In this document: positions 1 to 44,011 of the stretch, piece by piece | Position numbering within the stretch: position 1 is the stretch's first letter | Layout: each line of letters begins with the position of its first letter | Program-made: the position numbers and the translations under genes | UHGV virus genome: UHGV-2031204 | Reading direction: 5' to 3' (one strand) | From: a virus | Length of the DNA: 64,000 nt | Notes under the pieces: model-generated | Database searches by the model: none | What the model was told of the DNA's origin: nothing | What the model saw: the letters and a program-made list of their open reading frames with translations, nothing else

Positions 1-1
1 G

Positions 2-67
2 GATCATGAAAGCGCGGAATTGGACATCACTCTCACGTTAGAAGATGATGGATTAAAACCAGTATAA
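2..67 (+). CDS. 3' end of an upstream ORF running off the window start (function unknown)
   Basis: Open frame from position 2 to TAA at 65-67 (…DITLTLEDDGLKPV*). Confidence 0.3.
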   Translation, partial: DHESAELDITLTLEDDGLKPV

Positions 68-89
68 TAGTCCGCTTATAAAAAATATT

Positions 90-118
90 GGGGGGGGGGT
101 AAAGCACCTCCCCAGATC
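90..118 (+). terminator. G10 tract plus CCTCCCC stem element after upstream ORF (weak terminator or RNA structure)
   Basis: GGGGGGGGGG-TAAAGCACCTCCCC; near-identical element at 21370-21394. Confidence 0.35.
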
Positions 119-147
119 TTTTAGCTCCCGATAGAGAATTAAATATC

Positions 148-3100
148 ATGGCTAAAGCGGTAAAGAAAATTCGTTTACACGATTTACGTCCATACACCGG
201 GGATATAGGTGAAGGCGTTTTACTTTTTTCGAAAGACGAAAAAGATTATAAGTTACCCGTCCGCGAAATTGTTGCGGATATTGACACTGTCAGAAACGCA
301 GTTGCTGATGCACAAACAGCTGCAGCCAAATCGCAACAGTCTGCAACAGAAGCTACGCAAGCAAAAAATTTAGCAGAAACCGCGAAGCAACAAACTGACA
401 CGTTAGCTTCTACAGTTAGTGAGCAAGCGGGAACCGTTGCCACTAAAACTGCTGAGGTTAACAAAAAACACGCTGAAGTGTTGGCAGCGAAAACTGCCGT
501 AGATACTGTTTCACAATCAGTAAATGAGAAGGCTCAAGCTGTCGCTACAAGCGAACAATCGGTGACGGCTACAGCGGCTGATGTAACTAAGAAAGCAGAA
601 ACGGTTACGCAACAGGCCGGGCAAGTTCAACAAACCGCTACCAGTATCGCAGATACCGCAGCTTCAGTTGAGGCCAGTAAAGGTGCAGTGGAGAAGATTG
701 CTGCACAGGTCACGAAAGATAAGGAAAGTTCAGAAGGTGCAGCAACACGATCGGAATCAGCCGCTTTGCGTGCGGAGAAAATCGCTGCACAGGGTTTAGT
801 TGACGCTAGTACGACCGGTAAAGGTATCGTTAAACTTAACAATACCCTGACTAGCGAATCCGTGACTGAGGCTGCCACACCATCCACGGTTAAACAGCTG
901 AATGACGAATTACAGTTAAAAGCCAATAAACATTCGCCGAATTTTACGGGTAAACCGTCATCCCCAACACCCCCGAAGGACTCGAACGACACGAGCATCT
1001 CCACAACGGCCTGGGTGCGTGACGCGATTGCAGAACTGGTTGGTTCTTCACCCGAGACGTTAAACACCTTAGCGGAATTAGCTGAGGCGTTAGGTAATGA
1101 CCCTAACTTCGCAACAACGATTACTGAGGAACTTGCGCAGAAACAACCTCTCAGTCCGTTACTCACCGCTATTGCCGCAGTCACCACAGCGGCAAACAAA
1201 CTCATGTATTTCACCGGCAGTAATAAAGTCGGATTAACGGATTTTACAGAAACGGCCAGATCCTTGTTAGCGAAAGGGTCAACTGCGGATATCATCAATT
1301 TCTTGGGATTAAGAGCCACCGTAGATAAAGCGAATGGTGCGTTACAGAAGAACTCTAACGGCGCTGATATCCCAGATAAAGAAACGTTTGCTCGCAACAT
1401 CGGTCTATCTCCTGACACCTATCTGCGTTTCCGTGGCGAAATGCCTGTAGATGCTGATATTAACACATTTGCTCCAGATGCTAATTACACAGGAACGTGG
1501 GCTAAGTCGACATCAACCAATGCGTCGATGGCAAAACACTTCCCAGAAGACGGCGCAGTCGGTTATCTGGAAGTGTATAAAGCGGGCAACTACAGCGGCG
1601 CGCAACGTTTTACCTGTCGTAATGGTAACGTGTACAACCGTATGTTGTCAGGTGCGTGGAACGGAACTAATGGACCCTGGTCACCGTGGAGAATGGTAAC
1701 TACTGGTGTTCGTCCACTGTCTACCGCTATAGACTTGAACTCTCTGGGTGGCGCTGAGCATATGGGTAACTGGCGGAACTCGTCCAGTTCGTTAGCGGTG
1801 TTCGACCGACATTACCCCGAAGAAGGCGGTGGTGCGCAAGGCGTACTAGAAGTAATGGAAGGTGGTCTTTACGGACGGTTGCAGCGATACACTACGCGTC
1901 GTGGTACAATGTATGTCCGTGGTTTGACTGCAACGTGGGATTCATCAAACCCGCAATGGGAAGATTGGATTCAGGTTGGTTATCAGACTGACGGTGCTTT
2001 CTTTAAAGCCAATTTTAACGATCTCGTTAAACCAGGACGTTTCAGTGTCACTGGTGAAGCAACTAATGGTCCACTTACCGGTTCTTCTGGTGAAACCATA
2101 TTAGGCGTTTGTGAAGTTACCTTACGCTTAGACGGTACAGGGGTCGAACAGAATTATACTACATACGGTACGGGTGTAGAAACTAAAGGTCGTAAATTCC
2201 AACGTATCCGTACGGGTAACGCTTGGAGTGATTGGCGTGAGATTTTCACATCGTATTCGCTTCCGTTAGTATTAGGGGTTGGCGGTGAGCGTGCGAATGT
2301 TGATCCTTTAGACTGGCAAACCTATGACTTTAAACCAGGTGAGTTAATCTGTACGCCACTTAACACCATGAAAAACATTCCTGCGGGAATGGATTGGGGT
2401 GTTATTGACGGTAACTTAATTAGCATCCTGGTTGGACCATCAGATGGTGCATCCTCGGGTCGGAGCATGTTGGTTTGGCGTAGTACGGTGTCTACTGCCA
2501 ACTATCGATTCTTTGCCGTTCGCCTTGCAGGTAATCCGGGTAATCGTACTATTACTCCTCGACAGATGCCTGTATTGACCGCAGCACACACCTGGGCAGA
2601 AAAACAGACCTTTGCAAAAGGGTTAGCAGGTGAGTTAACAGGCAACGCTTCAACCGCCACTAAATTAAAGACGGCGCGTAGAATTGGTGGGGTCGCCTTC
2701 GATGGTAGCGGCGACGTTAACCTCCCAGGTGTTAACCAACAAGGTAATCAAAACACCACGGGTAACGCCGGTACAGCCACTAAACTTCAAACCGCTAGAA
2801 ATATTAACGGTGTGAGGTTCGATGGTTCTGCTGACATCAATATCAACACCTTGGTGGGTCGTGGTCGGGTTACCGCACTAACCGGTTCAAACAAAGGTAC
2901 GCCTGGTATTCAGATGTACGAAGTTTACAATAACGGCTATCCGTACGCTTATGGTAACTTACTCCATTTGGGTGGTGCTGCTGCGCTAGGCGAAGGCGAG
3001 TTGTTAATTGGTTGGTCGGGCACGAGTGGTGCGCACGCGCCAGTTTATATTCGTAGTCGACGTGATACGGCAGATGCGCCGTGGTCAGATTGGGCACAAG

Positions 3101-4770
3101 TTTATACTACACGTGACAGTATCCCTGGCGTAAATACCACAGGTAATCAGGACACTACTGGCAATGCCGCTACCGCGACGAAACTGAAAACCGCTCGCAG
3201 AATCGGCGGCGTTACCTTTGACGGTACTGGGGATATCAATTTACCGGGGGTTAACCAAGCCGGTAACCAGAATACGTCAGGTAATGCTGCAACAGCGACT
3301 AAACTCCAAACTGCTCGAAGTATCGGTGGTGTGGCTTTTGATGGTACTAAAGACATCAGTTTACCTGGGGTAAACCAAACTGGGAATCAGTCAACTACGG
3401 GGAACGCGGCCACTGCAACGAAGTTGCAGACAGCGCGTACCATTAATGGTATTGCTTTCGATGGCACGAAAAATATTGAACTGACCCCAAGAGCCATAGG
3501 CACGATTAACTCAACAACCATGTCTTTTAATGGTGGTGCCGGATGGTTCAAGCTGGCAACTGTAACTATGCCACAAGCCAGTTCCGTGGTTTACATAAGC
3601 ATGATTGGTGGCGCAGGGTTTAACGTTGGCTCCCCGCAGCAAGCTGGCATTTCTGAGCTGGTACTGCGTGCTGGAAATGGTAACCCAAAAGGTATTACTG
3701 GCGCATTATGGCGACGGACATCGGTTGGATTTACTAATTTTGCATGGGTGAATACATCTGGTGACACCTATGACATTTATGTAGAAATAGGTAATTACGC
3801 CACAGGGGTTAATATTCAGTGGGATTACACCAGTAATGCAAACGTAACAATCCACACAACACCAACTTATACAGCAGATAAACCAGCTGGCCTGACTGAT
3901 GGAACGGTATATGTCGTTTACAGTTCACACATTAAACCTACGGCGGGTGATGTTGGGGCGTTGCCATTATCCGGCGGCCAATTGAATGGAGCTTTGGGTA
4001 TTGGAACCGCCAATGCTTTAGGTGGGAACTCCATAGTTTTAGGGGATAATGACACCGGCCTTAAGCAGAACGGGGATGGCGTTCTAGATGTTTACGCCAA
4101 TAATGCTCACGTTTTACGCTTTACGAGTGGGGCTGTTCAAAGCAATAAACCTCTCAACGTTACTGGGGATATAAGAACCAATACTTGGGTTTATGCAAAT
4201 AGATATTCTATTAACAGCAACTCAGGTTCTTGGATTAGCATGAGAGACCATAACGTTATTTTTGGTCTTAATGCGGTAGGAACTAGTTCTGCTCAGGCAT
4301 TGTTAAGACAAGACCATGCTGATAGGAAATATTTTGTTGGTGGTTTAGGTAACAGTCAATTCGGCTTTTACATGATAAACAACTCACGTACTGATAATGG
4401 CACCGATGCCAATGCTTATTTGCAAAATGACGGTACTTGGGTTTGTGGTGGGAACGGTAACTTTAACGACGTTTATATACGTTCAGACGCCCGGCTGAAA
4501 AGTAATTTCTCTCCAATAACTAATGCATTGGAGAAGGTAAAGGAATTGTCAGGTTTAATATACGACAAAAAGGAGAACTTTAAATCCACTAATGTTCATC
4601 GTGAGGCTGGTGTTGTAGCGCAGACCTTACAAAAAGTGTTACCTGAGGCAGTTTCTACTTATAAAGACGCTAATGGTGAGGACGTTTTGACGGTCTCTAA
4701 TTCTGCTCAAATAGCTTTACTTATTGAGGCAATAAAGGAGTTGGCGGAGATAATTGAGACCAAGTTATAA
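148..4770 (+). CDS. Long tail fibre protein (distal-subunit-like) with tandem fibre repeats and C-terminal S74 intramolecular chaperone
   Basis: 1540 aa; Ala/Thr/Gln-rich N-terminal shaft; five tandem ~35-aa repeats TGNAATATKLxTAR.I.G..FDG..DI.L; C-terminal SDARLKSN…NALEKV…ALLIEAIKEL matches the S74 autoproteolytic chaperone signature. Confidence 0.85.
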   Translation: MAKAVKKIRLHDLRPYTGDIGEGVLLFSKDEKDYKLPVREIVADIDTVRNAVADAQTAAAKSQQSATEATQAKNLAETAKQQTDTLASTVSEQAGTVATKTAEVNKKHAEVLAAKTAVDTVSQSVNEKAQAVATSEQSVTATAADVTKKAETVTQQAGQVQQTATSIADTAASVEASKGAVEKIAAQVTKDKESSEGAATRSESAALRAEKIAAQGLVDASTTGKGIVKLNNTLTSESVTEAATPSTVKQLNDELQLKANKHSPNFTGKPSSPTPPKDSNDTSISTTAWVRDAIAELVGSSPETLNTLAELAEALGNDPNFATTITEELAQKQPLSPLLTAIAAVTTAANKLMYFTGSNKVGLTDFTETARSLLAKGSTADIINFLGLRATVDKANGALQKNSNGADIPDKETFARNIGLSPDTYLRFRGEMPVDADINTFAPDANYTGTWAKSTSTNASMAKHFPEDGAVGYLEVYKAGNYSGAQRFTCRNGNVYNRMLSGAWNGTNGPWSPWRMVTTGVRPLSTAIDLNSLGGAEHMGNWRNSSSSLAVFDRHYPEEGGGAQGVLEVMEGGLYGRLQRYTTRRGTMYVRGLTATWDSSNPQWEDWIQVGYQTDGAFFKANFNDLVKPGRFSVTGEATNGPLTGSSGETILGVCEVTLRLDGTGVEQNYTTYGTGVETKGRKFQRIRTGNAWSDWREIFTSYSLPLVLGVGGERANVDPLDWQTYDFKPGELICTPLNTMKNIPAGMDWGVIDGNLISILVGPSDGASSGRSMLVWRSTVSTANYRFFAVRLAGNPGNRTITPRQMPVLTAAHTWAEKQTFAKGLAGELTGNASTATKLKTARRIGGVAFDGSGDVNLPGVNQQGNQNTTGNAGTATKLQTARNINGVRFDGSADININTLVGRGRVTALTGSNKGTPGIQMYEVYNNGYPYAYGNLLHLGGAAALGEGELLIGWSGTSGAHAPVYIRSRRDTADAPWSDWAQVYTTRDSIPGVNTTGNQDTTGNAATATKLKTARRIGGVTFDGTGDINLPGVNQAGNQNTSGNAATATKLQTARSIGGVAFDGTKDISLPGVNQTGNQSTTGNAATATKLQTARTINGIAFDGTKNIELTPRAIGTINSTTMSFNGGAGWFKLATVTMPQASSVVYISMIGGAGFNVGSPQQAGISELVLRAGNGNPKGITGALWRRTSVGFTNFAWVNTSGDTYDIYVEIGNYATGVNIQWDYTSNANVTIHTTPTYTADKPAGLTDGTVYVVYSSHIKPTAGDVGALPLSGGQLNGALGIGTANALGGNSIVLGDNDTGLKQNGDGVLDVYANNAHVLRFTSGAVQSNKPLNVTGDIRTNTWVYANRYSINSNSGSWISMRDHNVIFGLNAVGTSSAQALLRQDHADRKYFVGGLGNSQFGFYMINNSRTDNGTDANAYLQNDGTWVCGGNGNFNDVYIRSDARLKSNFSPITNALEKVKELSGLIYDKKENFKSTNVHREAGVVAQTLQKVLPEAVSTYKDANGEDVLTVSNSAQIALLIEAIKELAEIIETKL

Positions 4771-4774
4771 TTAT

Positions 4775-4796
4775 CAGTGAGGGGTTCCCCTCACTG
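4775..4796 (+). terminator. Stem-loop after fibre gene (CAGTGAGGGG-TTCC-CCTCACTG), no T-run
   Basis: Perfect 9-bp inverted repeat immediately 3' of the stop; weak or attenuating. Confidence 0.3.
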
Positions 4797-4825
4797 ACTC
4801 ACAAGTACGTTATAAGGTGGTTATT

Positions 4826-5608
4826 TTGTCTGTATCAGCGACTCCCGGATGGATTGGTTCTTCAGCAAAAGCTGAAGCTGGTAATGGTTGGATGTCTGGC
4901 GCGATGCGCACACTTGGTGTGCCGGTCCCAGGCTGGATGTCGCAATTGGCGGGAAAATCAAAAGAGGCTCAGTATTCGATCGGGGCTAATCACAATTACA
5001 ATAAAGATACGCTTATTAACTATTTACGTTCCATAGGCTCTACTGCTGTCGTTGTGACCATTACAGGGGATTTAGTGTCTTATAGTAGCGGGGTTCCTTG
5101 TTTAGAGTTCCCTAGCAATCTTCCAAATTCGTATATTACCCTCATCATCAATCCTGGGGTTACAGTATACGGCAGAGGAGGCAACGGCGGTTCTAACTCA
5201 CCAGGCGGTGCAGGTGGAACCGCAATACAGAACGGAATAGGAAACAGACTGCGTATAACCAACCGTGGCGCTATTGCCGGAGGCGGTGGCGGCGGTGGCG
5301 GCGGTAACAGGGGTAGACTAATATTTGGTGGTGGCGGTGGTCGCCCATTCGGTGCTGGTGGGTCTTCCTCTCATATGAGTTCCGGTGCGGCTGCTGGTAC
5401 TATTTCCGCTCCTGGTAGAGGATCTGTTGGTGAGGGGTCTCTTAGTGCATATACAGGCGGTTCGGGTGGTAATGTCGGTGCTGGTGGAGGAAGATGTAAT
5501 ACTCATGGTAACGGTACAGAATATAACGGCGGGGCAGCTGGTGCTGCTGTTACTGGTAATGCGCCAAGATGGGACGCAGTAGGTGCAATATACGGTTCAC
5601 GTGTTTAA
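4826..5608 (+). CDS. T2-type gp38-like tail-fibre tip adhesin with polyglycine motifs
   Basis: GWIGSSAKAEAGNGWMS…GANHNYNKDTLINYLR…ITITGDLVSYS…CLEFPS…GGTAIQNGIGNRLRITNRGAIAGGGGGGGGG…GGGGGRPFGAGG resembles T2/T6-type gp38 (recalled, not searched). Start taken at TTG 4826 (RBS AAGGTGG 5 nt upstream); track start GTG 4817 is possible. Confidence 0.8.
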   Translation: MSVSATPGWIGSSAKAEAGNGWMSGAMRTLGVPVPGWMSQLAGKSKEAQYSIGANHNYNKDTLINYLRSIGSTAVVVTITGDLVSYSSGVPCLEFPSNLPNSYITLIINPGVTVYGRGGNGGSNSPGGAGGTAIQNGIGNRLRITNRGAIAGGGGGGGGGNRGRLIFGGGGGRPFGAGGSSSHMSSGAAAGTISAPGRGSVGEGSLSAYTGGSGGNVGAGGGRCNTHGNGTEYNGGAAGAAVTGNAPRWDAVGAIYGSRV

Positions 5609-5625
5609 TTAAAAAAGGAGGGTAG

Positions 5626-6129
5626 ATGGGGGTAGCGTCAGGATGGGTCGGATCTTCAGCTAGGAATGAAACTGGCCAACAATGGATGAGCGCTGCGGGT
5701 AGTAAATTAGGATTGGGTAGACCTTTTATGATGAGTCAAATGGTGGGACGATCTATGGGCTGTAAAATTGCAACCGCTGCATATAGCGATTCTTTAGGTA
5801 AGAAATGGGGCGCAGTAGGACCAAGCTGGCCGTTAAACCAGAAAAATCAGGGAACCATTCAAAACGCGGGTAACTGCGGGGTGGGAACTTTAGTAGGTAT
5901 TGAGTTACAGTTAACAACGATAGTTGCCAACGCAAAGCCTACTTTAGCGGTTTACTTACAAGGAGGCAGAGCCTCTAACATTACCGTAAATTTAGGTGGT
6001 AACACCTGCGCGCTGACCTATCAGCAGGTTATTAACGGACAGCATTATTACTGGACTAATAACATCAGCGCTGCGTTCCAAAACGTGATGAAATCAACCG
6101 GTACACTGAGAGATTTCAAAATTAGTTAA
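5626..6129 (+). CDS. gp38-like paralog: same N-terminal domain, unrelated non-glycine-rich C-terminal domain
   Basis: MGVASGWVGSSARNETGQQWMSAAG aligns with the N-terminus of 4826..5608; strong RBS AAGGAGGG; C-terminal 100 aa lack polyglycine tracts. Confidence 0.65.
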   Translation: MGVASGWVGSSARNETGQQWMSAAGSKLGLGRPFMMSQMVGRSMGCKIATAAYSDSLGKKWGAVGPSWPLNQKNQGTIQNAGNCGVGTLVGIELQLTTIVANAKPTLAVYLQGGRASNITVNLGGNTCALTYQQVINGQHYYWTNNISAAFQNVMKSTGTLRDFKIS

Positions 6130-6216
6130 TTATTTTTCAAGTGGAAGCGCTTGAAATCGTAATCGGGGGGATGTTTTAAAAGACTTTCTACGTCCCCCTA
6201 AACTTAAAGGTGTGTT

Positions 6217-8151
6217 ATGATGTTGGTGCGCGATATTAAAGATTACACCGAACTAGCAACATACGCGTTAAATTCGTTGTTAACGCTTGACAAACCAGAA
6301 ATACTCGATGAATCCGTCACGATAACGGTAGACCAGGAAACGAACTATGATTACGTTGGTCAAGTTACTGGTCGTGTTTCTGTAGCTAGTCCCACTGAAT
6401 ATAAAATTGCGATGTATACCTATACAACGGGAGAGTACGCGCAAGGTGAATCAGCATTAAACGAATCGGGTGAGTTTAATTTTAAACGAACATGGCCGGG
6501 GACAAAACAATTTCGTTTAATTAGAATTGCTGATGGCAAATGGATTTCTACGTTAGAGTTCCCATTGTGCATCCGTAGTTACCATATGCCAGAAAACGCG
6601 GACCCTGAAACGATCAGGATTATGAAAGATCGGTGTTATACTTACGATCAGGCTGTTGCTGCTCTTGCATTAATGGTATACGGTCATGAAAAGGTAGAAC
6701 AGTTTGTAAAAGGTCTTTTAGCGCTGGTCAATGAAGACGGGGGCGTTAAATTCTACGTAAACCGACTTTCAGCTAAATCTTCGCGAAATTATTACCGTAT
6801 GGGTAACGTCGCGTGGGTACTTTACGCTTTAGCTTTTTATCTTGAAAAATTTCCTGCCGGAAATCTAGCGGCACAGGTTCGTGAAAAATTAACACTTTCC
6901 TTAACCTGGCTGGAAACTTACAAGGTAACGCAGGAGACAGATCGCCGCAAAGGTTTATATCTTGGTGGAAAGGGTCGTTTTGTTACTACCGAATCAGGCG
7001 AACGTGTTTTTGAAGAAGACTACGTTGCACCTTTTGCGGCTTTAGAACATCAGGTAGATATTTGGTTCCTGTTCGAATTACTAGGGCGCGTCGGTTTTGA
7101 TGCATACCAACAAAAAGCAGCGGACTTCGGTAATAGAATAGTAGAAGCTTTTTGGATGGAAGACGAAGGACGTTTTCGTCAGGGTGTGAGAGAAACAGAA
7201 GATGATAACGCAGCTGCGTTAGATCAGTCCAGTTGGGGTGGGCTATTTGCGGCCAAATTTAAACCAGAGTACGCCGAACGTTGTCACGCTTTTATGGAGA
7301 AATTTCGTTCGGAAACCTCTGAGTGTCGTGGCTACACACCATACAAAACCGAGTTTGGTTACCCTAATGCTAAAGAAGGGGTGTGGGTTGAAGGTGCCGC
7401 CGGTGTTGCATTATTCGAACGTCAGTTAGGAAATGATAAACGTGCTGTTGAGATCATTAACGACTTAGATGTTCTTTTATCAGAATACGGTTATCGTGAT
7501 TCTTGCGATGATCCTACCTATGATACGCTGCCGCCGTGGTGGTCAACCACAAACACTGCATGGGTGCTTTTAGTCTGTAAGCCAAGTAATTTTTGGCTTG
7601 TAGATAAGTCTCCTTTAACGGAGAGATATAATCCGCAGAATAAATTTTTACCAGATATTTCATTAAACTCTTTAAATCTTGTAATTTCGTTAGTGAATCA
7701 CGATTTAAAAACAGATTACACGGAGTCTGATGTTGAAATCAGCAAGATTTCACTTAGCACGGAAGAAAATCGTGACACAACAGCGATAATGGAAATAAAA
7801 CGTCCTAATAAACGGTCGTTACAGATCTATTACAACCGTTTAACCGCAGCGCGGTGGTTAAACCAGCAACCTATTCTGGTAAAGGTCACCGGTAATGGTT
7901 TTACTACTCGCGATCTGATCGACGGAATTAACGCTGTCTGTGGTAGTAATTTACAAGCCGACGATCTTACCGATAAAACATTTACCGTAGGGAGGGACGC
8001 TGTAACATTACAAGTTTCACCCAACTCGCTAGGTTATAAAGGCCAATTCTCCGTTCTGGTTTTCGGTAACGACGAAGAAGCCGCTGTAGTAAAAGACAAC
8101 GATTTAATCGTTACTGCAGATAACCGTGTCTTAACATTCGGAGGTCACTAA
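6217..8151 (+). CDS. Hypothetical 644-aa protein, possible (alpha/alpha)6-toroid glycosidase-like fold
   Basis: RBS AAAGGTG; recurring aromatic helix-end motifs (NVAWVLYALAFY, VDIWFLFELL, SSWGGLFAA, GVWVEGAAGVALF, TNTAWVLLV). Fold assignment is inference. Confidence 0.55.
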   Translation: MMLVRDIKDYTELATYALNSLLTLDKPEILDESVTITVDQETNYDYVGQVTGRVSVASPTEYKIAMYTYTTGEYAQGESALNESGEFNFKRTWPGTKQFRLIRIADGKWISTLEFPLCIRSYHMPENADPETIRIMKDRCYTYDQAVAALALMVYGHEKVEQFVKGLLALVNEDGGVKFYVNRLSAKSSRNYYRMGNVAWVLYALAFYLEKFPAGNLAAQVREKLTLSLTWLETYKVTQETDRRKGLYLGGKGRFVTTESGERVFEEDYVAPFAALEHQVDIWFLFELLGRVGFDAYQQKAADFGNRIVEAFWMEDEGRFRQGVRETEDDNAAALDQSSWGGLFAAKFKPEYAERCHAFMEKFRSETSECRGYTPYKTEFGYPNAKEGVWVEGAAGVALFERQLGNDKRAVEIINDLDVLLSEYGYRDSCDDPTYDTLPPWWSTTNTAWVLLVCKPSNFWLVDKSPLTERYNPQNKFLPDISLNSLNLVISLVNHDLKTDYTESDVEISKISLSTEENRDTTAIMEIKRPNKRSLQIYYNRLTAARWLNQQPILVKVTGNGFTTRDLIDGINAVCGSNLQADDLTDKTFTVGRDAVTLQVSPNSLGYKGQFSVLVFGNDEEAAVVKDNDLIVTADNRVLTFGGH

Positions 8152-8771
8152 TGGCTGAACTGGTAGGAAAGGTACGCGTTCACGAACTACCGACACTTTC
8201 AGATGACGTCACAGGTGTAGTCGTCTTAGCGTCTAAAGAACAAACTGAATACCAACTCCCGATTGAGAACTTAGGGGGTGGTGAGGTTACAGTGAGTCCG
8301 TCGGCGAATAACATCCTTAAGTCTAACAGTGATGGGTTGTTTGTTAATGGTGCACATCCGATTGTACCAAAAATGGATGCAAAAACCGTATCGGGAAATA
8401 TGGTAGTAGAAAAAACGTTGACGGGTGGTGCGGTAATCTGCAAAACAACGGTTGACGTTAATAACAGGCTGGGTGTTACGCAATTATCAGGGGTATCAAT
8501 TTATAGCCAGTGTCTGTTGGAAAATAAATTGGTTTACCTGGCAGCAGATGGTGGTATTATTGATGCGTACTTCTACGTTAGTGGTACAAAAACCACAGCG
8601 AGTACAATAACCCACACCATTCGTGTTGTTTTAGCGAAGATACCCTCTAAAGTTATCGATATCACCGATTTGTCTGAAACCGAAGTACAATACGAGAATA
8701 GTAATTTACCTGTTAAGATCGTTATTAAACATCTTGCAGGGACAACACTTTCTCAGAACGGAATGAAATAA
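8151..8771 (+). CDS. Short fibre-like protein sharing the N-terminal anchor domain of the 1540-aa fibre
   Basis: MAELVGKVRVHELPTLSDDVTGVVVLASKEQTEYQLPI aligns with MAKAVKKIRLHDLRPYTGDIGEGVLLFSKDEKDYKLPV of ORF 148..4770; ATG overlaps the upstream stop, RBS GGAGGT. Confidence 0.6.
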   Translation: MAELVGKVRVHELPTLSDDVTGVVVLASKEQTEYQLPIENLGGGEVTVSPSANNILKSNSDGLFVNGAHPIVPKMDAKTVSGNMVVEKTLTGGAVICKTTVDVNNRLGVTQLSGVSIYSQCLLENKLVYLAADGGIIDAYFYVSGTKTTASTITHTIRVVLAKIPSKVIDITDLSETEVQYENSNLPVKIVIKHLAGTTLSQNGMK

Positions 8772-8777
8772 TTTTTA

Positions 8778-8818
8778 GGTAGTAGGGGCTTAGCCCCTAC
8801 TACCTTTTTTATTTTTTC
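8778..8818 (+). terminator. Rho-independent terminator
   Basis: GGTAGTAGGGG-CTTAG-CCCCTACTACC followed by a T-run. Confidence 0.7.
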
Positions 8819-8863
8819 TCAGATATATATTACCTAGAGGAGAGTGAAATTTACGTTCACTCC
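8816..8863 (+). promoter_or_regulatory. Conserved phage promoter-like motif plus 5'-UTR hairpin (copy 1 of 4)
   Basis: TCAGATATATATTACCTAGAGG followed by hairpin GGAGAGTGAA…TTCACTCC; related copies at 13205, 45418, 49705. Confidence 0.45.
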
Positions 8864-8891
8864 ATTAGTTATAGCCGAAAAGGAGGATTAG

Positions 8892-9743
8892 ATGCATTAC
8901 CCGTATTATCTCCCGCACATTCTAGCAAATAGGGACCCTGGTTATTACTACGAACAAACAGAAGGATCTTTTAATCGACTATACATTCGTGAATTTGATA
9001 CCGATGAAATGACGGATGACCAGTATCTGGAGTATCTAAAAGACCTTTACAGTTTTTCAAAATCGAATAAAGATGGCTTTGGACGTCTCTCAGTCATTAG
9101 CGATGGCGAATATCGTCATTTAGCTAAGCCTGTTACGTACCCTATTATTACGCGAGCTTATACATCGGATAGGCAATATCTTGCTGAACTAAAAATTCCT
9201 CTACGGATAGACGGGCCCCAAATTAGCTGTATGGAAGTAGAAATTCAACCGATTGCTGAAGACTACATCGAAGACTACTTCAAGAAAGCTAAAGACTTAC
9301 TCGACGAGGGTTTAAGTTTCTCTGAAGAAGGCACGATTTGTCTTCTCTCGCTACTCTCGAAGACTTATGTCACGGCAAATTTCCGTGTCTCTGATTCCAG
9401 TAACTACAATACACTTACTCCCTCTAAGACAAAACCGGTTTATTGGGACGATCGGTTAGTCGATAGACACCGTTGGCTTACTATCTTAGATAAAGTAAAA
9501 TTCGAACCCCCTAAACACACCGAAGACAATTTTACTTTATTACACAACTTCGACCCGATCTATATCCCGACGCATTTTGAACAAGCCTTACGTCATCGGT
9601 TGAAATATGTGTTGGAATTACGGTACGGGAAGATAAATGGGCTAACCTGTTCTGGTGAATTGGGAGAAGAAGAACGCGAGAAAATAAAAATCGTGTTTGA
9701 TAAGTTGGTTGAAGATTACATTAAGAAGGAAGGGCAATTATGA
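8892..9743 (+). CDS. Hypothetical protein
   Basis: 283-aa ORF with RBS AAAAGGAGG; no motif recognised. Confidence 0.55.
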   Translation: MHYPYYLPHILANRDPGYYYEQTEGSFNRLYIREFDTDEMTDDQYLEYLKDLYSFSKSNKDGFGRLSVISDGEYRHLAKPVTYPIITRAYTSDRQYLAELKIPLRIDGPQISCMEVEIQPIAEDYIEDYFKKAKDLLDEGLSFSEEGTICLLSLLSKTYVTANFRVSDSSNYNTLTPSKTKPVYWDDRLVDRHRWLTILDKVKFEPPKHTEDNFTLLHNFDPIYIPTHFEQALRHRLKYVLELRYGKINGLTCSGELGEEEREKIKIVFDKLVEDYIKKEGQL

Positions 9744-10183
9744 AACCAAATACTACTAACGGCATTATGCTACTTTGTGATTCTGAAACGTTAGCAAACC
9801 GTATTCGCGGTTTGATGCAAGTACGTTGGCAGCAAAAAGTTCTCGTGGATTACGATGCACCGTTTGTTCACATTACATGGTTGCCAGAAGCTAGTGATTT
9901 CAAAGAACGTATAACCACAAGAAGAATTAAAGAATGGTTATCGGCGATCATTAATAAACAGATTACCGTCATCAATTTCCAGTTGTTCGGTACCGCTGAA
10001 GAACATGAAATCTTAAAACAATGTTTAAGAGCGTTGGCTGTTTCCTTTTCTGTTCGTGGTAGCTGCTATACGGCTTACTTTATCGGTTCACTTGAGCTGT
10101 TTAAGAATACGCTAATGCTTCAGCTAAAAGATGACTACAAACTTTTAGATAAAATCGATTTCGAATTCCCAGGTATGATTTAA
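9740..10183 (+). CDS. Hypothetical protein
   Basis: 147-aa ORF, start overlaps upstream stop (translational coupling). Confidence 0.5.
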   Translation: MKPNTTNGIMLLCDSETLANRIRGLMQVRWQQKVLVDYDAPFVHITWLPEASDFKERITTRRIKEWLSAIINKQITVINFQLFGTAEEHEILKQCLRALAVSFSVRGSCYTAYFIGSLELFKNTLMLQLKDDYKLLDKIDFEFPGMI

Positions 10184-10194
10184 GGAACTATAAC

Positions 10195-11040
10195 ATGTTA
10201 CAGTTCGAACTCACCGAAGAAGAAAAAGTCATCACCAAGTTTAAAATTTCCCCTATCCCTACTGAAGAACAAATTAAGGAAATCGCTGAGCTACAAAAAA
10301 CGTACACTTTTTACTATAAAGTTAAATCGGAAACATTTAACATTTTCTGGGTAGAAGGTGATGTCGATTTTCCTAACAAACTCATTAGTGCGATTACGGA
10401 TATTTTAGTACGGTCTGTTGAGGTGTCTAAAGATCCAGAATTACCAGAACAGTCGACTTGTGGGCTAATGGACAAGCCAACTATGAAAGACACCGCTCGT
10501 TACACAAGCGAGTTTCCACTTACCCCTAAACAAGCAGATAAAATTGAACCAATACTACACCATTTTTTCAGCGATAAATTCACGTATGTGATTGAAGACA
10601 ACGTGCTTAAAGCGAGCTATAAATATACTGGTTATCGTGCTCTTATAGATCAACTATTGAAAGATATAGAGGACGAGAATATTCTGCTATTTACCGTTGA
10701 AAATATCACAGAAGCCGATGCTGATGAGCTTATTATCCGAGCCGTGGATGTTGAAAAAGAACTCGGTGGGTTTATAATTTGTCAAAGCAAGTATTTTAAA
10801 GATAATTTACATCTCCTGATCAGAAACAAACCGCGGTTTCTTAAAGCTTTGAAAACTCATGTGCGGGAAATTAAGAGATGTAATGAATCTTTTAAACACG
10901 TTTTCGAGAAATACGAAAAGGAAGTCAGCGAACGTCTTTCACGCCACCTTTTTGGGGAGTTCGAAAAACACGTTGACAAATACGCCCAGTTGTTTGATAA
11001 GTTTTGTAACGAGATGAGAGAAATTCGAAATCTTAAATAA
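10195..11040 (+). CDS. Hypothetical protein
   Basis: 281-aa ORF in tight co-directional array. Confidence 0.5.
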   Translation: MLQFELTEEEKVITKFKISPIPTEEQIKEIAELQKTYTFYYKVKSETFNIFWVEGDVDFPNKLISAITDILVRSVEVSKDPELPEQSTCGLMDKPTMKDTARYTSEFPLTPKQADKIEPILHHFFSDKFTYVIEDNVLKASYKYTGYRALIDQLLKDIEDENILLFTVENITEADADELIIRAVDVEKELGGFIICQSKYFKDNLHLLIRNKPRFLKALKTHVREIKRCNESFKHVFEKYEKEVSERLSRHLFGEFEKHVDKYAQLFDKFCNEMREIRNLK

Positions 11041-11082
11041 CGAAGGCTTAAACACCACACCATCTACCTAAAGGAGCATTAA

Positions 11083-11598
11083 ATGTCAGTAAATATTAAC
11101 ATGAATCTTTATACTAAACGTGAACGTCAGATTCTGGCGAATCAACCTGGCGTTACTGCCATCGACGGTAAACCTATTGACCGTTTAAAAGTTATCGTTG
11201 CGCGAAATTGCCATGAACGCGATTGGGATATCACCTACTTCCGTTGCTGTTCGGTCGCAAACGCGCTTACCCAACTCTCCAACTATCACCCAGGACCGCT
11301 ATTAAAAGACTGGGTTTGGTTAGTCCCTAAAACTCCCTCAGCAATTGAGTATCCCGCTGGGTTAGTCTATATTCGACCTGTCGCTTACCCAGAACGTCTG
11401 AAAGAGTATCTTGAAGTTATCTGGAACCGCCCTCGTAAAGAGCTGGTGTCGATTATTAATTTACTGCAACAGATCGATATCCCCGGTGTTTTGAATTTGA
11501 AACTCACGTCTCGCGATATTAACCAGGCTTACTGGGAACTGGAGTGGACTGAACCGAAATTCGAAAACACTAACCGTATTTTCTTGCACCGGGGGTAA
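11083..11598 (+). CDS. Hypothetical protein
   Basis: 171-aa ORF, RBS AAAGGAG. Confidence 0.5.
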   Translation: MSVNINMNLYTKRERQILANQPGVTAIDGKPIDRLKVIVARNCHERDWDITYFRCCSVANALTQLSNYHPGPLLKDWVWLVPKTPSAIEYPAGLVYIRPVAYPERLKEYLEVIWNRPRKELVSIINLLQQIDIPGVLNLKLTSRDINQAYWELEWTEPKFENTNRIFLHRG

Positions 11599-11600
11599 AA

Positions 11601-11882
11601 ATGTTAGATTGGTTGTTGGGGTTAATTAACTCACGTCAACAGGAGCTTTATAAAGAAAACACGCGATTACGGCAGGAACTTAGTAACAATCGCCAAACCA
11701 AACGACAATTAATTCGGATGGTAAAACAACAGGCGCGTTGTATACGGGATATCGATTATCAGTATCACCGTCTGAATACCTTAGACCCAACAACAAAAGC
11801 TTTAGGCAGTACGATTGGACATGCACGTAAAGTCAGTCACGATGCGTTAGTTCGATTAGATACAATAGAAGAGAAACTGTGA
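11601..11882 (+). CDS. Hypothetical small coiled-coil protein
   Basis: 93-aa ORF, heptad-like basic/Gln-rich sequence; followed by hairpin CTCTCCCTCGG-GAACG-CCGAGGGAG. Confidence 0.45.
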   Translation: MLDWLLGLINSRQQELYKENTRLRQELSNNRQTKRQLIRMVKQQARCIRDIDYQYHRLNTLDPTTKALGSTIGHARKVSHDALVRLDTIEEKL

Positions 11883-11925
11883 TTAGCTCTCCCTCGGGAA
11901 CGCCGAGGGAGATAAGGTGATTTAC

Positions 11926-12315
11926 ATGATGTGTTTATTTTACTTAAAAAGGCGTTTGTCATTAAAAGCCCAACTGTTTGTTAACGGGAAAGTTAAAAAC
12001 TGGCTGTGTGGTAAAAGAGTACAATATGTCGTTAAAGAAGGCGACTGGTATACGGAGGTTGTGACTTCCCCTAACGGTGAACTTATAAACGTTACTATTC
12101 GTGACGTTATGGTTAAGGTTGGCAGGGGAGGCGGTCGGTTGTTTGAATCGGAAACTATAAGAGTCGCTGCTAAACAATTGAAAGAAGGTCGAGTTATATT
12201 CAACTCTACTGCCCAGAAATACTACGACAATTTATTCGAGTGTCAACGAGCAATGGAGAGAATGACCCGTGAGATGCGAAAAATGCACATCACGGAGATC
12301 ACTATAGGAGTTTAA
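11926..12315 (+). CDS. Hypothetical protein
   Basis: Track ORF 11917..12315; ATG at 11926 sits 6 nt after RBS AAGGTG. Confidence 0.45.
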   Translation: MMCLFYLKRRLSLKAQLFVNGKVKNWLCGKRVQYVVKEGDWYTEVVTSPNGELINVTIRDVMVKVGRGGGRLFESETIRVAAKQLKEGRVIFNSTAQKYYDNLFECQRAMERMTREMRKMHITEITIGV

Positions 12316-22694: not shown

Positions 22695-23242
22695 TCATCG
22701 TCTCCTTTAATCAACCCTAATTCGATTAACAGTTCAAAATCGATATGACGGAATCTTGTGTCGAAATCCGATTCCCAATCGATACGGATACCCTGGCATT
22801 CTTCTGGCGTTAGCTCAGGAAAAATCACGGTATTAAATTTCTCTCGCTCATCGTAAAACCCATCAATCGGTGAGTTCGGGTTACGTGTTGCGAAGATAGT
22901 AATGCCGGGGAAGGACAATGCCAACACAGTGATAGATTCTGCGCTGGGTTCGCTTAAAGAGCGGCGTAGAAACGCAATTTTGTGACGTGGGAAATCCAAT
23001 ACCCGTTCTTCAAACCCTGGGTTACGTTTTTCAATTTCCGCGACCGACAGGTCAGTAAGTTCGGTGCAGTACATTGGGATGATTACAGTCACGCCGTGAC
23101 GAATCAGTAAGCGTTTTACGTCATCGGTAAAATCTTCACCGTTAATCACCGCATAGCAACCGAATAGCTTACTGTTTTCCAGAAACTTATCCAGAAGTCG
23201 AATTCTACGCTTCGTAATATTGTTGATCAGAATTGGTTTCAT
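22670..23242 (-). CDS. Hypothetical protein in the radical-SAM operon
   Basis: 190-aa ORF; RBS AAGAGAAG; overlaps the 3' end of the upstream gene. Confidence 0.5.
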   Translation of the reverse strand: MKPILINNITKRRIRLLDKFLENSKLFGCYAVINGEDFTDDVKRLLIRHGVTVIIPMYCTELTDLSVAEIEKRNPGFEERVLDFPRHKIAFLRRSLSEPSAESITVLALSFPGITIFATRNPNSPIDGFYDEREKFNTVIFPELTPEECQGIRIDWESDFDTRFRHIDFELLIELGLIKGDDECLLLVKA

Positions 23243-24527
23243 CTTTGGCTTCTCTTAATAATTTTTCCTTTTGGGCACGTTCACGAACACAGCGTGGGCA
23301 ATAACACATACTCGTGTCGTGGAACGCTTTTGCTGACGTCGTACCCATCTTCTGTTTCCAGTATTCCGCCACCATCAGTTTCGCTGTCGTCCAGCCGCAC
23401 TGGCGTCGTTCAGCGTGATACGCTTTACGGTCTTCTAACGTTCCTTCCCCGTTCTCGTAAGAAGCCGCCGCACAGCTACCACAAGCGTGTTTCATCGGAC
23501 AACCTAAACAGGTTTCTGGGTAGTTGGTATATTGCGTTTGAATCTCTTCTAGCAGCTTACCGTTGTCCAGACTGACGAATTCCCGACCTACCAACTCAAA
23601 CACCGCAGAACGCGACGTTACCGTTGACATAAAGCGGTTACAGCCAAAGATCTTACGGTCAAATCCTAAGCACGTCATGTGCGTTAATGTCCCACAGAAC
23701 GGACGTAAGCGTTCTGGGTTCAACCGTACGGTGTCATTATACAGTAACTGGTCACGCCAGTTCGGTTCCCAAATCGTATCGAAATCCAACCCTTCTGGAA
23801 TGATGTGCGATAAGATATTACGTGGGTTGGTGTGTAATCCTTTCTCAACCCAGTAATCTATCACATCCATCATCTGTAAAGCGATTGACGTCGCCATGCT
23901 ACGTGGCATAACGTCTTCGAAAGTTACGTTTCCAGAAATTGTCCCACCGCCAGTAATGTCAATTAATGACTTCATCCCCGCAGCATAGAACGGCAGCGTT
24001 TCTAACGTAAAGGTTGCTTTTACGCCGAGCTCTGCAATGCCAACCTCTTTTAAGTAGTTATAGCCACGTACTGCGGCTTCGTAAGAACCCTGGCGTGTTG
24101 TTGTGAAGATACGATAACGGTCATGGGATTCAGGTAAGCCATCAATCGAAACCCCAACCGAAAGTTTATCTTTCCAACGTTCTACAATCTCACGGTTCAA
24201 CGGACGATCTAACAGCGTTCCGTTCGTGGAGATACTAAACATAAACGGTCGGTTGTGTTCTTTACACAACTGCTCAGCGGTTTCAAACGCAGCCAGCAGC
24301 AGTTTAGGCTGCATGAACGGTTCGCCACCGATAATGTCGATAATAACTTCAACATTCGGTTCGTTTTTATCGCGTTCAAAACAGGCGTGCAAGAAATCAA
24401 CAATATCTGCCGCTTTGTTGTTACGTGGGTACTTACGTTCGTAACAATATTCGCAGTCCAGGTTACATGAAAGGTTGGTTACGATCTGATACGTTAACTG
24501 CTTAGGGAATTCATTTACTTGACTCAT
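23205..24527 (-). CDS. Radical SAM enzyme with C-terminal SPASM-like Cys cluster
   Basis: CNLDCEYC (CxxxCxxC) near N-terminus; C-terminal cysteines CLGCPMKHACGSC…CGW…CYCPRC. Confidence 0.75.
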   Translation of the reverse strand: MSQVNEFPKQLTYQIVTNLSCNLDCEYCYERKYPRNNKAADIVDFLHACFERDKNEPNVEVIIDIIGGEPFMQPKLLLAAFETAEQLCKEHNRPFMFSISTNGTLLDRPLNREIVERWKDKLSVGVSIDGLPESHDRYRIFTTTRQGSYEAAVRGYNYLKEVGIAELGVKATFTLETLPFYAAGMKSLIDITGGGTISGNVTFEDVMPRSMATSIALQMMDVIDYWVEKGLHTNPRNILSHIIPEGLDFDTIWEPNWRDQLLYNDTVRLNPERLRPFCGTLTHMTCLGFDRKIFGCNRFMSTVTSRSAVFELVGREFVSLDNGKLLEEIQTQYTNYPETCLGCPMKHACGSCAAASYENGEGTLEDRKAYHAERRQCGWTTAKLMVAEYWKQKMGTTSAKAFHDTSMCYCPRCVRERAQKEKLLREAKDETNSDQQYYEA

Positions 24528-27573: not shown

Positions 27574-28773
27574 TTATCGCGTACCCGCTTCTGCCTGAAC
27601 GTCATCACGGGACGTCAAGTTAGCGTTAACGTGTACTGGAGCCTGAACCACACCACCATATTTCTTGTGGAGATAGCCCGTATGTGGGTTATCCGCCGCA
27701 ATATGGTTTTGCAGGTTCTGATTCGCCTGACTGATTGCGTTCGTGTTATTCGCAACCTGTTGTTTAAGCGCATCCAGGTTTTGTTGCAGATTATCAATTT
27801 TCTGATCGGACTCATTACCCCGCTGTTCTAACGCAGCAATGCGCTGAATCGCTTGGTTGAGTTTGGTGCTCAGATCGTTGATATTTTTCTGTAACTGTAA
27901 CACTAGCGAATTTAGGTTCGCCAATGCCAATGCCATCTTCTGGTAGTTTTGTGCAACGATGTTAAGTTGGTCGTTCCACGCTTCCAAAGATTTGACAACA
28001 GCATCAATACGTTTTCCTAACGCTTCGTCTGCTTTCTTCAACGCATTAATATCAGTAATGGTTGCATCGATGGCAGACTGTACGTCACGGATAAGTGCAC
28101 GGATCTCCGTTTCTGTTAACCCGTTAACCTGGTGAATATCCAGATGGTGGACGTTACCCGTGGCGTTAATGTGCGCGTTCAGCGCGTCCAGGAAATCGTT
28201 TTTCAGGCTTTCGAGAATCGCTTTGATGTTCTCAAGCTGTACAGCATCGCCCGCCGTTATCGCATCTTTGATGCCAGCGAGCACTGTAATAATGTATTCG
28301 AAGCCGTAAATATCGCCGACGTCTTTATACGTCGGTGCCGACGGAAATGTATCAGGAACATTTCGCAAGTCTTTAAAGCCAACAGTTCGATTATCGAGAT
28401 TCAACTCAGCAATCGCCTGTTCTATCGCAGTCACGTTTGCCGACTGCGGACCCCCGACTACTTGCGCCGATACCGTGATATCGGTCGGAATCGCGGTGTT
28501 CGTTACAACAACCGCCATTACCACTTCCCGGTTCTTCGTCAATTTCTCGTAAGCCGGGTGTGCAAAAATCAACTCATAGTCCGTTCCGCGCTCATACGTC
28601 GCATCGGGGCGGTTAGCAACCCGCAAGCGGAACGTATCAGCATAAAACGGTCCGTCAGGAAAAGCAAACGCACGGTTAACTTTACCTGTACCTAACGTAA
28701 CCTGACGCTCCACGGCGTTAGAGGTTAGGCTTCCCGTTAAATCTAAAGGGTATTGGTATACAATGGAGGCCAT
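27574..28773 (-). CDS. Fibre protein with N-terminal anchor domain and long coiled coil (fibritin/whisker-like)
   Basis: ATG 28773 after RBS AAGGAGA; heptad-rich 250-380 region; N-terminal motif shared with the three giant proteins. Confidence 0.6.
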   Translation of the reverse strand: MASIVYQYPLDLTGSLTSNAVERQVTLGTGKVNRAFAFPDGPFYADTFRLRVANRPDATYERGTDYELIFAHPAYEKLTKNREVVMAVVVTNTAIPTDITVSAQVVGGPQSANVTAIEQAIAELNLDNRTVGFKDLRNVPDTFPSAPTYKDVGDIYGFEYIITVLAGIKDAITAGDAVQLENIKAILESLKNDFLDALNAHINATGNVHHLDIHQVNGLTETEIRALIRDVQSAIDATITDINALKKADEALGKRIDAVVKSLEAWNDQLNIVAQNYQKMALALANLNSLVLQLQKNINDLSTKLNQAIQRIAALEQRGNESDQKIDNLQQNLDALKQQVANNTNAISQANQNLQNHIAADNPHTGYLHKKYGGVVQAPVHVNANLTSRDDVQAEAGTR

Positions 28774-28813
28774 GGCCACTCTCCTTAATCCGAGACGTCC
28801 TTGTCTCGTGGCG

Positions 28814-44009: not shown

Positions 44010-44011
44010 GC

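What the first reader, a model, noticed from the sequence alone, without database searches (positions are those of the whole stretch)
4483..4770. Predicted autoproteolytic release of a 94-aa chaperone from the long tail fibre
The C-terminus carries the S74 signature (…YIRS-DARLKSNFSPITNALEKV…); the conserved Ser is codon 4483-4485 (residue 1446). After cleavage the mature fibre would end at S1446, the likely docking surface for the downstream adhesins.
Basis: partly seen in the sequence, partly recalled or inferred. Interest (0 to 1): 0.45.

Follow-up and report, generated by a model that had tools for sequence, protein, structure and literature searches.

The report
Self-cleaving chaperone on jumbo-phage tail fibre
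The last 95 residues of this 1540-residue phage tail fibre are a standard self-cleaving folding chaperone (Peptidase S74) whose release should expose the docking tip for the two adhesin genes downstream, a mechanism already known from T2/S16-type phages but found here in an SPN3US-like giant phage.

Summary
ORF 148-4770 (+) encodes a 1540-aa fibre. Its C-terminus matches Pfam Peptidase_S74 (E 5.7e-15, 55.8 bits against a cutoff of 22), with profile position 1 on S1446 (codon 4483-4485). S1446, D1447, R1449, K1451, G1488, A1491, Q1492 and P1499 are invariant in 22 homologues. An AlphaFold model of 1446-1540 is confident, and its best PDB matches are solved S74-type chaperone domains.

In T5, K1F and S16 the catalytic Ser leaves with the chaperone. 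The mature fibre should therefore end at R1445 (…NFNDVYIR) and the released piece is 95 aa (10.4 kDa), not 94.

The adhesin-docking idea is well supported. Both downstream ORFs carry the Gp38_N attachment domain. In 50 of 52 independent loci chosen only for a Gp38_N gene, an S74-ended gene stops about 110 nt or less upstream.

This is the established T2/S16 gp37-gp38 mechanism. Two things are new: the setting, a mosaic single-chain fibre in an SPN3US/phiEaH2-like jumbo phage, and two tandem adhesins for one tip. Cleavage and docking are inferred, not shown. Verdict: new member of a known kind, modest interest.

The parts
148..4770 (+). Tail-fibre gene, 1540 aa (162.9 kDa precursor). It is a mosaic of an SPN3US-type N-terminal adaptor, a P2 H-like segment (388-859), P1 S/Goslar-like repeats, a Mu S-like distal shaft and an S74 chaperone.
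148..273 (+). N-terminal adaptor, about 42 aa (MAKAVKKIRLHDLRPYTGD…KDYKLPVREI). It is shared at 52% identity with the start of the SPN3US 'tail fiber protein' gp143 and is the presumed baseplate attachment.
3163..3378 (+). Tandem 120-nt (40-aa) fibre-shaft repeats (…ATKLKTARRIGGVTFDG…NLPGVNQ…).
4114..4482 (+). Distal shaft, residues 1323-1445, homologous to phage Mu tail fibre S (PDB 5yvq residues 320-447, E 2e-36). It ends in …GGNGNFNDVYIR.
4468..4482 (+). DVYIR (D1441-R1445), the predicted C-terminal strand of the mature fibre and part of the exposed adhesin-docking tip. The scissile bond is R1445|S1446 (4482|4483).
4483..4767 (+). Peptidase_S74 intramolecular chaperone, S1446-L1540, 95 aa, 10.4 kDa. 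The catalytic Ser is at 4483-4485 and the Lys at 4498-4500. The conserved G..AQ……P motif lies at 4609-4644. A C-terminal helix (about residues 1518-1539) probably forms the coiled coil.
4774..4797 (+). 10-bp GC-rich hairpin between the fibre and the first adhesin gene (fold of 4765-4830: -20 kcal/mol, z -3.1). It has no T-run, and the stem is kept in relatives L002, L003 and L010.
4826..5608 (+). Adhesin 1, a T2/S16-type Gp38 with Gp38_N plus the polyglycine GP38 domain. The likely start is TTG 4826, after the Shine-Dalgarno sequence AAGGTGG at 4811-4817, giving 260 aa. All three attachment Trp are present (W9, W22, W37).
5626..6129 (+). Adhesin 2, 167 aa. It has a Gp38_N attachment domain (W7 and W20; the third Trp position is M35, after invariant F34) and a confidently predicted beta-sandwich head (residues 45-167) of no assigned family.

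Best explanation
The C-terminal 95 residues (S1446-L1540) form a Peptidase_S74 intramolecular chaperone. By analogy with solved family members, three copies drive trimerisation and registration of the distal beta-helical shaft. Once the trimer is correctly folded, K1451 activates S1446, the R1445-S1446 peptide bond is cut, and the 10.4-kDa chaperone trimer leaves. The 152.5-kDa mature fibre then ends in …NFNDVYIR. Its blunt three-fold tip becomes free for one monomeric adhesin, which attaches through the three-helix Gp38_N domain by inserting aromatic side chains into three equivalent pockets. Two such adhesins are encoded directly downstream. One is a T2/S16-type polyglycine-sandwich Gp38, which in T-even phages binds outer-membrane porins. 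The other is a small beta-sandwich protein. Shown here: domain identity, catalytic residues, predicted fold, gene linkage and module boundaries. Inferred: that cleavage occurs, its exact bond, and that either adhesin binds the tip.
For: Pfam S74 match at E 5.7e-15, with profile position 1 on S1446. S1446, D1447, R1449, K1451, G1488, A1491, Q1492 and P1499 are invariant in 22 diverse homologues. All 32 S74 homologues examined carry SDxRxK, and 26 of them carry the exact junction VYIR|SD. In the AF2 model, residues from about 1450 to 1540 have pLDDT above 90. Its Foldseek PDB hits are the MyRF ICA domain 7dc3 (E 2.7e-5), the endoNF chaperone 3gw6 and the GA-1 chaperone 3gud. Sequence matches include S16 gp37 (6f45), which aligns DLNVSSDRRIKK with DVYIRSDARLKS. 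Published cleavage data cover S16 and the fPS phages (PMC7917993) and T5 pb1 S1264/K1269 (PMC4690869). Both downstream ORFs have Gp38_N (E 2.3e-11 and 2.9e-20), and the first also has GP38 (E 6e-69). The gp38 Trp-into-pocket docking mode is published (PMC6851490), and the Trp residues are conserved here. In 50 of 52 IMG/VR loci retrieved only by a Gp38_N gene, an S74-ended gene stops about 110 nt or less upstream. The same locus layout recurs in ~225-kb relatives.
Against: There is no experimental evidence of cleavage or binding for this protein. The model is a monomer, so the trimer-dependent activation geometry (a neighbouring-subunit Arg, as in T5) was not examined. The chaperone is short, 95 aa against 113 in S16, 133 in T5 and about 150 in endoNF. 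Foldseek E-values to the phage chaperones 3gw6 and 3gud are only about 1e-2. Adhesin 2 lacks the third Trp. Only 64 kb of a genome of about 225 kb is visible, so another docking partner for one adhesin cannot be excluded.
Confidence: 0.82

Rival explanations
1. [quoted passage not shown]
For: The phi29 appendage structure was modelled with the Ser as the last mature residue (reported in PMC4690869).
Against: The same paper calls that density less convincing, and it reports the Ser missing from mature T5 pb1 and K1F. S16 gp37 is cut before the conserved Ser, and the identical DVYIR^SD motif of the fPS phages is predicted likewise (PMC7917993).
Confidence: 0.1
2. The S74 domain is retained: it acts as an uncleaved structural cap or a degenerate domain, and the full-length protein sits in the virion.
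For: The chaperone is unusually short (95 aa), and cleavage has not been shown.
Against: Every family-invariant residue, including the Ser-Lys dyad, is intact. A retained chaperone would occupy the tip that the Gp38_N proteins need. The uncleaved T5 mutant cannot bind its receptor. The S74-to-Gp38_N gene linkage is near-universal.
Confidence: 0.05
3. The chaperone is cleaved but the fibre tip itself binds the receptor, as in T5 pb1. The downstream Gp38_N proteins would then act only as assembly factors, as T4 gp38 does, or would serve another fibre encoded outside the window.
For: The Mu S-like shaft is derived from receptor-binding fibres. Only about a quarter of the genome is visible.
Against: Adhesin 1 is the T2-type adhesin family PF05268, about 80% identical at the DNA level to Krischvirus gp38 adhesins, not the T4 chaperone type. 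Mu/P1-type homologues carry their variable receptor-binding heads after the junction …GNFDSRYV[RK], and that part is exactly what the chaperone replaces here. The window holds no other S74 domain.
Confidence: 0.05

Closest known systems
Salmonella phage S16 (and T2/T6) long tail fibre gp37 with its C-terminal intramolecular chaperone, plus the gp38 adhesin (PDB 6F45)
   Same: Both have an S74 chaperone at the C-terminus of the distal fibre protein, an SDxRxK dyad, and an adhesin gene with Gp38_N and a polyglycine sandwich immediately downstream. In S16, removal of the chaperone exposes the docking tip.
   Different: This fibre is one 1540-aa chain in an SPN3US-like jumbo phage, not the four-protein gp34-gp37 fibre of Straboviridae. 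The chaperone is 95 aa against 113. A Mu S-like domain of about 95 aa lies between the S16-like triangular-domain segment and the tip. Two Gp38_N genes follow instead of one.
[quoted passage not shown]
   Same: The junction motif is the same: DVYIR^SDGRLKI there and DVYIR^SDARLKS here. A T2-type Gp38 follows in both, and cleavage is predicted between Arg and Ser (PMC7917993).
   Different: The phage family and the upstream fibre body differ.
Phage T5 L-shaped tail fibre pb1 chaperone (PDB 4UW8) and K1F endosialidase C-terminal chaperone (PDB 3GW6)
   Same: Same Peptidase_S74 family, the same Ser-x4-Lys dyad, trimer-dependent self-cleavage, and a Ser that leaves with the chaperone.
   Different: In T5 and K1F the uncovered tip is itself the receptor-binding or enzymatic end, with no separate adhesin. 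Their chaperones are longer (133 and about 150 aa).
Phage Mu tail fibre S with chaperone Tfa (PDB 5YVQ), and P1 S
   Same: Residues 1323-1445 are homologous to Mu S 320-447 (E 2e-36). The shared shaft runs up to …GNF(D/N)xxY(V/I)(R/K).
   Different: Mu and P1 continue with a variable receptor-binding head of about 60 aa and use a separate Tfa chaperone. Here that head is replaced by the S74 chaperone plus separate adhesins.
Escherichia phage CMS-2020a (SSU5-like, 107.6-kb circular record)
   Same: This is the closest nucleotide relative of the module, at 82% identity over window 3469-5572. Its 1576-aa fibre ends …SFNDVYIR|SDRRSK with a 96-aa chaperone, followed by a 279-aa Gp38.
   Different: The phage type is unrelated, and it has a single adhesin gene.

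Membership tests
Peptidase_S74 / C-terminal intramolecular chaperone domain (PF13884) | Profile match above the curated threshold | tested here: met
   55.8 bits against a cutoff of 22, E 5.7e-15, residues 1446-1502 matching profile positions 1-57 of 58
Peptidase_S74 / C-terminal intramolecular chaperone domain (PF13884) | Catalytic Ser-Lys dyad in the motif S-D-x-R-x-K | tested here: met
   S1446 and K1451 are invariant in the 22-sequence alignment A1 and present in all 32 homologues examined
Peptidase_S74 / C-terminal intramolecular chaperone domain (PF13884) | Located at the extreme C-terminus of a trimeric fibre or spike protein | tested here: met
   It occupies residues 1446-1540 of 1540. 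Upstream lie a Phage_fiber_2 repeat and P2 H-, P1 S- and Mu S-like fibre segments
Peptidase_S74 / C-terminal intramolecular chaperone domain (PF13884) | Chaperone fold: an alpha/beta body with beta-hairpins and a C-terminal coiled-coil helix | tested here: met
   The AF2 model has pLDDT above 90 from about residue 1450 to 1540. Top Foldseek PDB hits are 7dc3 (E 2.7e-5, prob 1.0), 3gw6 and 3gud (E about 1e-2, prob 0.97-1.0)
Peptidase_S74 / C-terminal intramolecular chaperone domain (PF13884) | Trimer-dependent activation through a neighbouring-subunit residue such as T5 Arg1250 | not tested
Peptidase_S74 / C-terminal intramolecular chaperone domain (PF13884) | Actual autoproteolysis and release | not testable with these tools
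   This needs protein chemistry or virion mass spectrometry
T2/S16-type fibre-tip plus Gp38 adhesin system | An adhesin with the Gp38_N attachment domain and the GP38 polyglycine domain | tested here: met
   ORF 4826-5608 matches GP38 at E 6e-69 and Gp38_N at E 2.3e-11
T2/S16-type fibre-tip plus Gp38 adhesin system | Three conserved Trp at the apices of the attachment helices | tested here: met
   Adhesin 1 has W9, W22 and W37. Adhesin 2 has W7 and W20 but M35 at the third position, so it meets this feature only partly
T2/S16-type fibre-tip plus Gp38 adhesin system | A fibre protein ending in an S74 chaperone, genetically coupled to the adhesin | tested here: met
   The gap is 55 nt in the window. 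In 50 of 52 IMG/VR loci picked by Gp38_N alone, an S74-ended gene lies directly upstream
T2/S16-type fibre-tip plus Gp38 adhesin system | Physical attachment of the monomeric adhesin to the trimeric tip | not testable with these tools
   This needs multimer modelling or biochemistry
Straboviridae (T-even) long tail fibre, gp34-gp35-gp36-gp37 | A four-protein fibre within a T4-like genome | tested here: not met
   This is a single 1540-aa chain. The backbone genes are SPN3US/phiEaH2-like (a virion protein is 83% identical to phiEaH2). The locus is syntenic with the SPN3US gp143 region

The most novel reading that the evidence does not exclude
Release of the chaperone exposes a single three-fold docking site per fibre. 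Two structurally unrelated monomeric adhesins then compete for it: a porin-type polyglycine Gp38 and a small beta-sandwich Gp38_N protein. Each virion of this jumbo-phage lineage would therefore carry a mixed set of fibre tips and recognise two receptors. The tandem pair is kept in the ~150-225-kb relatives (L002, L004-L006, L009-L011) even though the adhesin heads are swapped between them.
Probability: 0.35. Interest if true: 0.5.

Novelty: new member of a known kind. Interest (0 to 1): 0.3.

Why it matters
The result correctly defines the mature tail-fibre end (…DVYIR, R1445) and the host-range determinants of an uncultured or poorly described lineage of giant enterobacterial phages. It shows that the T2/S16 'cleave, then cap with an adhesin' cassette moves as a unit, at a sharp module boundary, into unrelated phages: an SPN3US-like jumbo phage, an SSU5-like phage and many prophages. 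It has practical uses. Host range could be re-targeted by swapping only the small adhesin genes. Annotation pipelines could use an S74-ended fibre as a flag for a separate adhesin downstream. The mechanism itself is not new.

Tried and rejected
- **Megablast of 3800-4900 against phages:** no match. The wider 1-12000 query was needed to find the mosaic matches.
- **Megablast of 44000-64000:** only a 60-nt hit, so the backbone had to be placed by protein searches.
- **Phi1 (Krischvirus) as a comparator locus:** unhelpful, because its gp38 is unlinked from gp37 (in line).
- **Paper search for Ser911/Lys916 of endoNF:** returned nothing. One search failed on a term that was too short. The T5 paper supplied the mechanistic statement instead.
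- **PDB fold search for adhesin 2:** no match with E below 1e-3. Only the viral predicted-structure library gave relatives.
- **A second S74 fibre or further Gp38_N genes in the window:** none found.
- **Whether the gene is split, as in the gene calls of relatives L002 and L003:** in the window it is one uninterrupted frame.
- **My first regular expression for S74 in the IMG/VR loci:** it missed six loci with …GLFAQ…. Inspection by eye corrected the count from 44 to 50 of 52.

Full report
**Observation.** The window has one long ORF at 148-4770 (+), encoding 1540 aa. S1446 is codon 4483-4485 (TCA), R1445 is 4480-4482 and K1451 is 4498-4500. Pfam Peptidase_S74 (PF13884) matches residues 1446-1502, profile positions 1-57 of 58, at E 5.7e-15 and 55.8 bits against a curated cutoff of 22. 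The profile starts exactly on the conserved Ser. The only other Pfam hit in the protein is a Phage_fiber_2 repeat at 221-261. No other in-frame S74-like motif occurs in the 64-kb window.

**Catalytic residues and fold.** A homologue search with residues 1300-1540 returned 254 proteins. All 32 S74-bearing hits I examined carry SDxRxK. In 26 of them the junction reads VYIR|SD, nearly always as NFNDVYIR or SFNDVYIR. An alignment of 22 diverse members has these invariant columns: S1446, D1447, R1449, K1451, G1488, A1491, Q1492 and P1499.

An AlphaFold2 model of residues 1381-1540 is confident for the chaperone part. Ten-residue blocks average pLDDT 91-97 from about residue 1450 to the end. It is poor for the preceding shaft, as expected for one chain of a trimer.

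Foldseek against the PDB returns the MyRF ICA domain (7dc3, E 2.7e-5, prob 1.0), the K1F endosialidase chaperone (3gw6) and the GA-1 chaperone (3gud), the latter two at E about 1e-2 and prob 0.97-1.0. All three are S74-type domains. Sequence searches of the PDB also find S16 gp37 (6f45), a tail fibre (8jov) and MyRF. The S16 alignment places DLNVSSDRRIKK over DVYIRSDARLKS.

**Where the cut falls.**
- PMC7917993 reports that S16 gp37 is cleaved between the two serines of DLNVS^SDRRIKK, releasing a 113-aa chaperone and exposing the Gp38 docking surface.
- The same paper predicts that the fPS phages are cut at DVYIR^SDGRLKI, the motif present here.
- PMC4690869 shows that in T5 pb1 Ser1264 is activated by Lys1269, with a neighbouring-subunit Arg acting as the folding sensor.
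- It also shows that the Ser is not seen in the mature fibre, as in K1F. Only the phi29 appendage was modelled with the Ser retained, on weaker density.

By analogy the scissile bond here is R1445|S1446. The mature fibre is residues 1-1445 (152.5 kDa) and the released piece is S1446-L1540, 95 aa and 10.4 kDa.

**Surroundings.**
- ORF 4817/4826-5608 is a full T2/S16-type Gp38 adhesin (GP38 E 6e-69, Gp38_N E 2.3e-11). It is about 80% identical at the DNA level to Krischvirus gp38.
- A Shine-Dalgarno sequence (AAGGTGG, 4811-4817) favours TTG 4826 as its start, giving 260 aa. That agrees with the 260- and 261-aa products called in relatives.
- Its three attachment tryptophans are present (W9, W22, W37). 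They correspond to the Trp residues that insert into three equivalent pockets of the S16 gp37 base (PMC6851490).
- ORF 5626-6129 (167 aa) has a strong Gp38_N match (E 2.9e-20) and nothing else in Pfam. It keeps W7 and W20. The third Trp position is M35, after an invariant F34.
- Residues 45-167 of this second protein are predicted with pLDDT around 90 as a beta-sandwich. It has no PDB match with E below 1e-3. It resembles predicted small Gp38_N proteins of the Proteus T4-like phages phiP4-3 and PM2 and a Vibrio phage.
- A hairpin at 93-113 lies upstream of the fibre gene. A strong terminator at 8777-8805 follows the ORF at 8151-8771. This suggests a single fibre/adhesin transcription unit.

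**Comparative test of the docking idea.** I scanned IMG/VR with patterns derived only from the Gp38_N part of the short adhesins and obtained 52 loci.
- In 50 of them, a gene ending in an S74 domain stops about 110 nt or less upstream of the Gp38_N gene. The junction is ND[VIT][YQ]IR|SDxRxK and the chaperone is 92-103 aa.
- One locus (L037) holds a frameshifted remnant.
- One locus (L047, a 164.7-kb Krischvirus-like contig) has the adhesin unlinked, as published for that genus.

This near-obligate coupling across jumbo-phage contigs, prophage-sized contigs and an SSU5-like phage (CMS-2020a) is the strongest evidence here that the S74-ended tip and Gp38_N proteins work together. Tandem pairs of Gp38_N genes occur in the window and in L002, L004-L006 and L009-L011, all contigs of about 150-225 kb, and in L045.

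**What the fibre and the phage are.** The backbone is an SPN3US/phiEaH2-like jumbo phage.
- Three paralogous giant virion proteins and other genes hit the PHROG families typical of that group.
- A 457-aa virion protein is 83% identical to phiEaH2 and 78% identical to SPN3US.
- There is no nucleotide-level relative in the phage collection.
- Closely related ~225-kb contigs exist in a Salmonella assembly and in metagenomes, with the same locus order.

The fibre itself is a mosaic.
- Its first ~42 residues match the start of SPN3US 'tail fiber protein' gp143, in a syntenic locus that has no S74 or Gp38.
- Residues 388-859 are about 61% identical to P2 tail fibre H.
- Other stretches match P1 S and the Goslar fibre.
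- Residues 1289-1347 match the S16 gp37 distal segment, and 1323-1445 match Mu S (5yvq, E 2e-36).

Mu/P1-type homologues share the shaft up to …GNFDSRYV[RK] and then diverge into variable receptor-binding heads. The chaperone therefore begins exactly at a module boundary used by other fibres. GC content is 46-50% in the fibre body, against about 40% in the S74 segment and 37-42% in the backbone.

**Comparison with what is known.** A recent preprint states the paradigm explicitly. In T2, T6 and S16, gp37 carries an intramolecular chaperone and self-cleaves on trimerisation, and gp38 supplies receptor binding (bioRxiv 10.64898/2026.05.12.724579). The present case fits that paradigm feature by feature. 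It is not a Straboviridae fibre, because it is a single chain in an SPN3US-like genome.

**Verdict.** The finding is a correct functional annotation of a known mechanism with a one-residue boundary correction. I rate it a new member of a known kind. The less ordinary aspects are the transfer of the cassette into a giant-phage lineage and the conserved presence of two different adhesins for what appears to be a single docking site.

**Limits.** Cleavage and docking are inferred. No trimer or complex model could be made because the prediction jobs were exhausted. Only 64 kb of the genome is visible.

Noticed in passing
window 5626-6129 (+): A second Gp38_N protein (167 aa) has a confidently predicted beta-sandwich head with no PDB fold match below E 1e-3. 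Its relatives are small uncharacterised Gp38_N proteins in Proteus and Vibrio T4-like phages and many enterobacterial prophage contigs. Its third attachment Trp is replaced by Met after an invariant Phe.
   Followed up: partly
window 4774-4797 (+): A 10-bp GC-rich hairpin with no T-run lies between the fibre stop and the first adhesin gene (fold of 4765-4830: -20 kcal/mol, z -3.1). The stem is conserved in L002, L003 and L010 while the loop differs. It may be an mRNA-stability or attenuation element.
   Followed up: partly
window 4817-4828 (+): The mechanical ORF for adhesin 1 starts at GTG 4817. The Shine-Dalgarno sequence AAGGTGG (4811-4817) and the 260-261-aa products in relatives point to TTG 4826 as the real start.
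   Followed up: partly
window 4444-4500 (+), compared with Mu S (PDB 5yvq residues ~435-447): The similarity to Mu and P1 fibres runs a few residues past the cleavage site: NFDSRYVR-DVRLG against NFNDVYIRSDARLK. The catalytic Ser is missing and Lys is replaced by Gly. This could be a relic of a shared junction or simply a recombination boundary.
   Followed up: no
window 6217-8151 and 8151-8771 (+): A 644-aa protein carries DUF7941 at residues 482-620, and a 206-aa protein of no family follows it. In relatives the same position holds a 170-aa DUF7941 protein plus a ~706-aa SASA/DUF6645 esterase-like protein. This is a second variable receptor-binding module in the same transcription unit, which ends at the strong terminator 8777-8805.
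   Followed up: no
L002 3059-10810 and L003 6472-11032: In two close relatives the fibre gene is called as fragments: 1001 aa, then a gap, then 269 aa in L002; and overlapping 1190-aa and 343-aa products in L003. These are frameshifts or assembly errors in the repeat-rich shaft. The window copy is intact.
   Followed up: no
window 28814-42630 (-): Three adjacent paralogous giant virion proteins (1727, 1401 and 1440 aa) cross-hit each other's PHROG families (7449, 8078, 7557, 2163). A 401-aa relative lies at 27574-28779. This paralogue set is typical of SPN3US/phiKZ-like phages.
   Followed up: no
window 23205-24527 (-) and 53609-56188 (+): A radical-SAM domain protein (440 aa) and an SbcC-like nuclease subunit (859 aa) are encoded in the jumbo-phage backbone.
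   Followed up: no
window 3163-3378 (+): A tandem 120-nt (40-aa) repeat lies in the fibre shaft, with further diverged copies upstream (…TATKLxTAR.I.GV.FDG…). It is a likely site of length variation between relatives, whose fibres are 1439, 1479 and 1540 aa.
   Followed up: no
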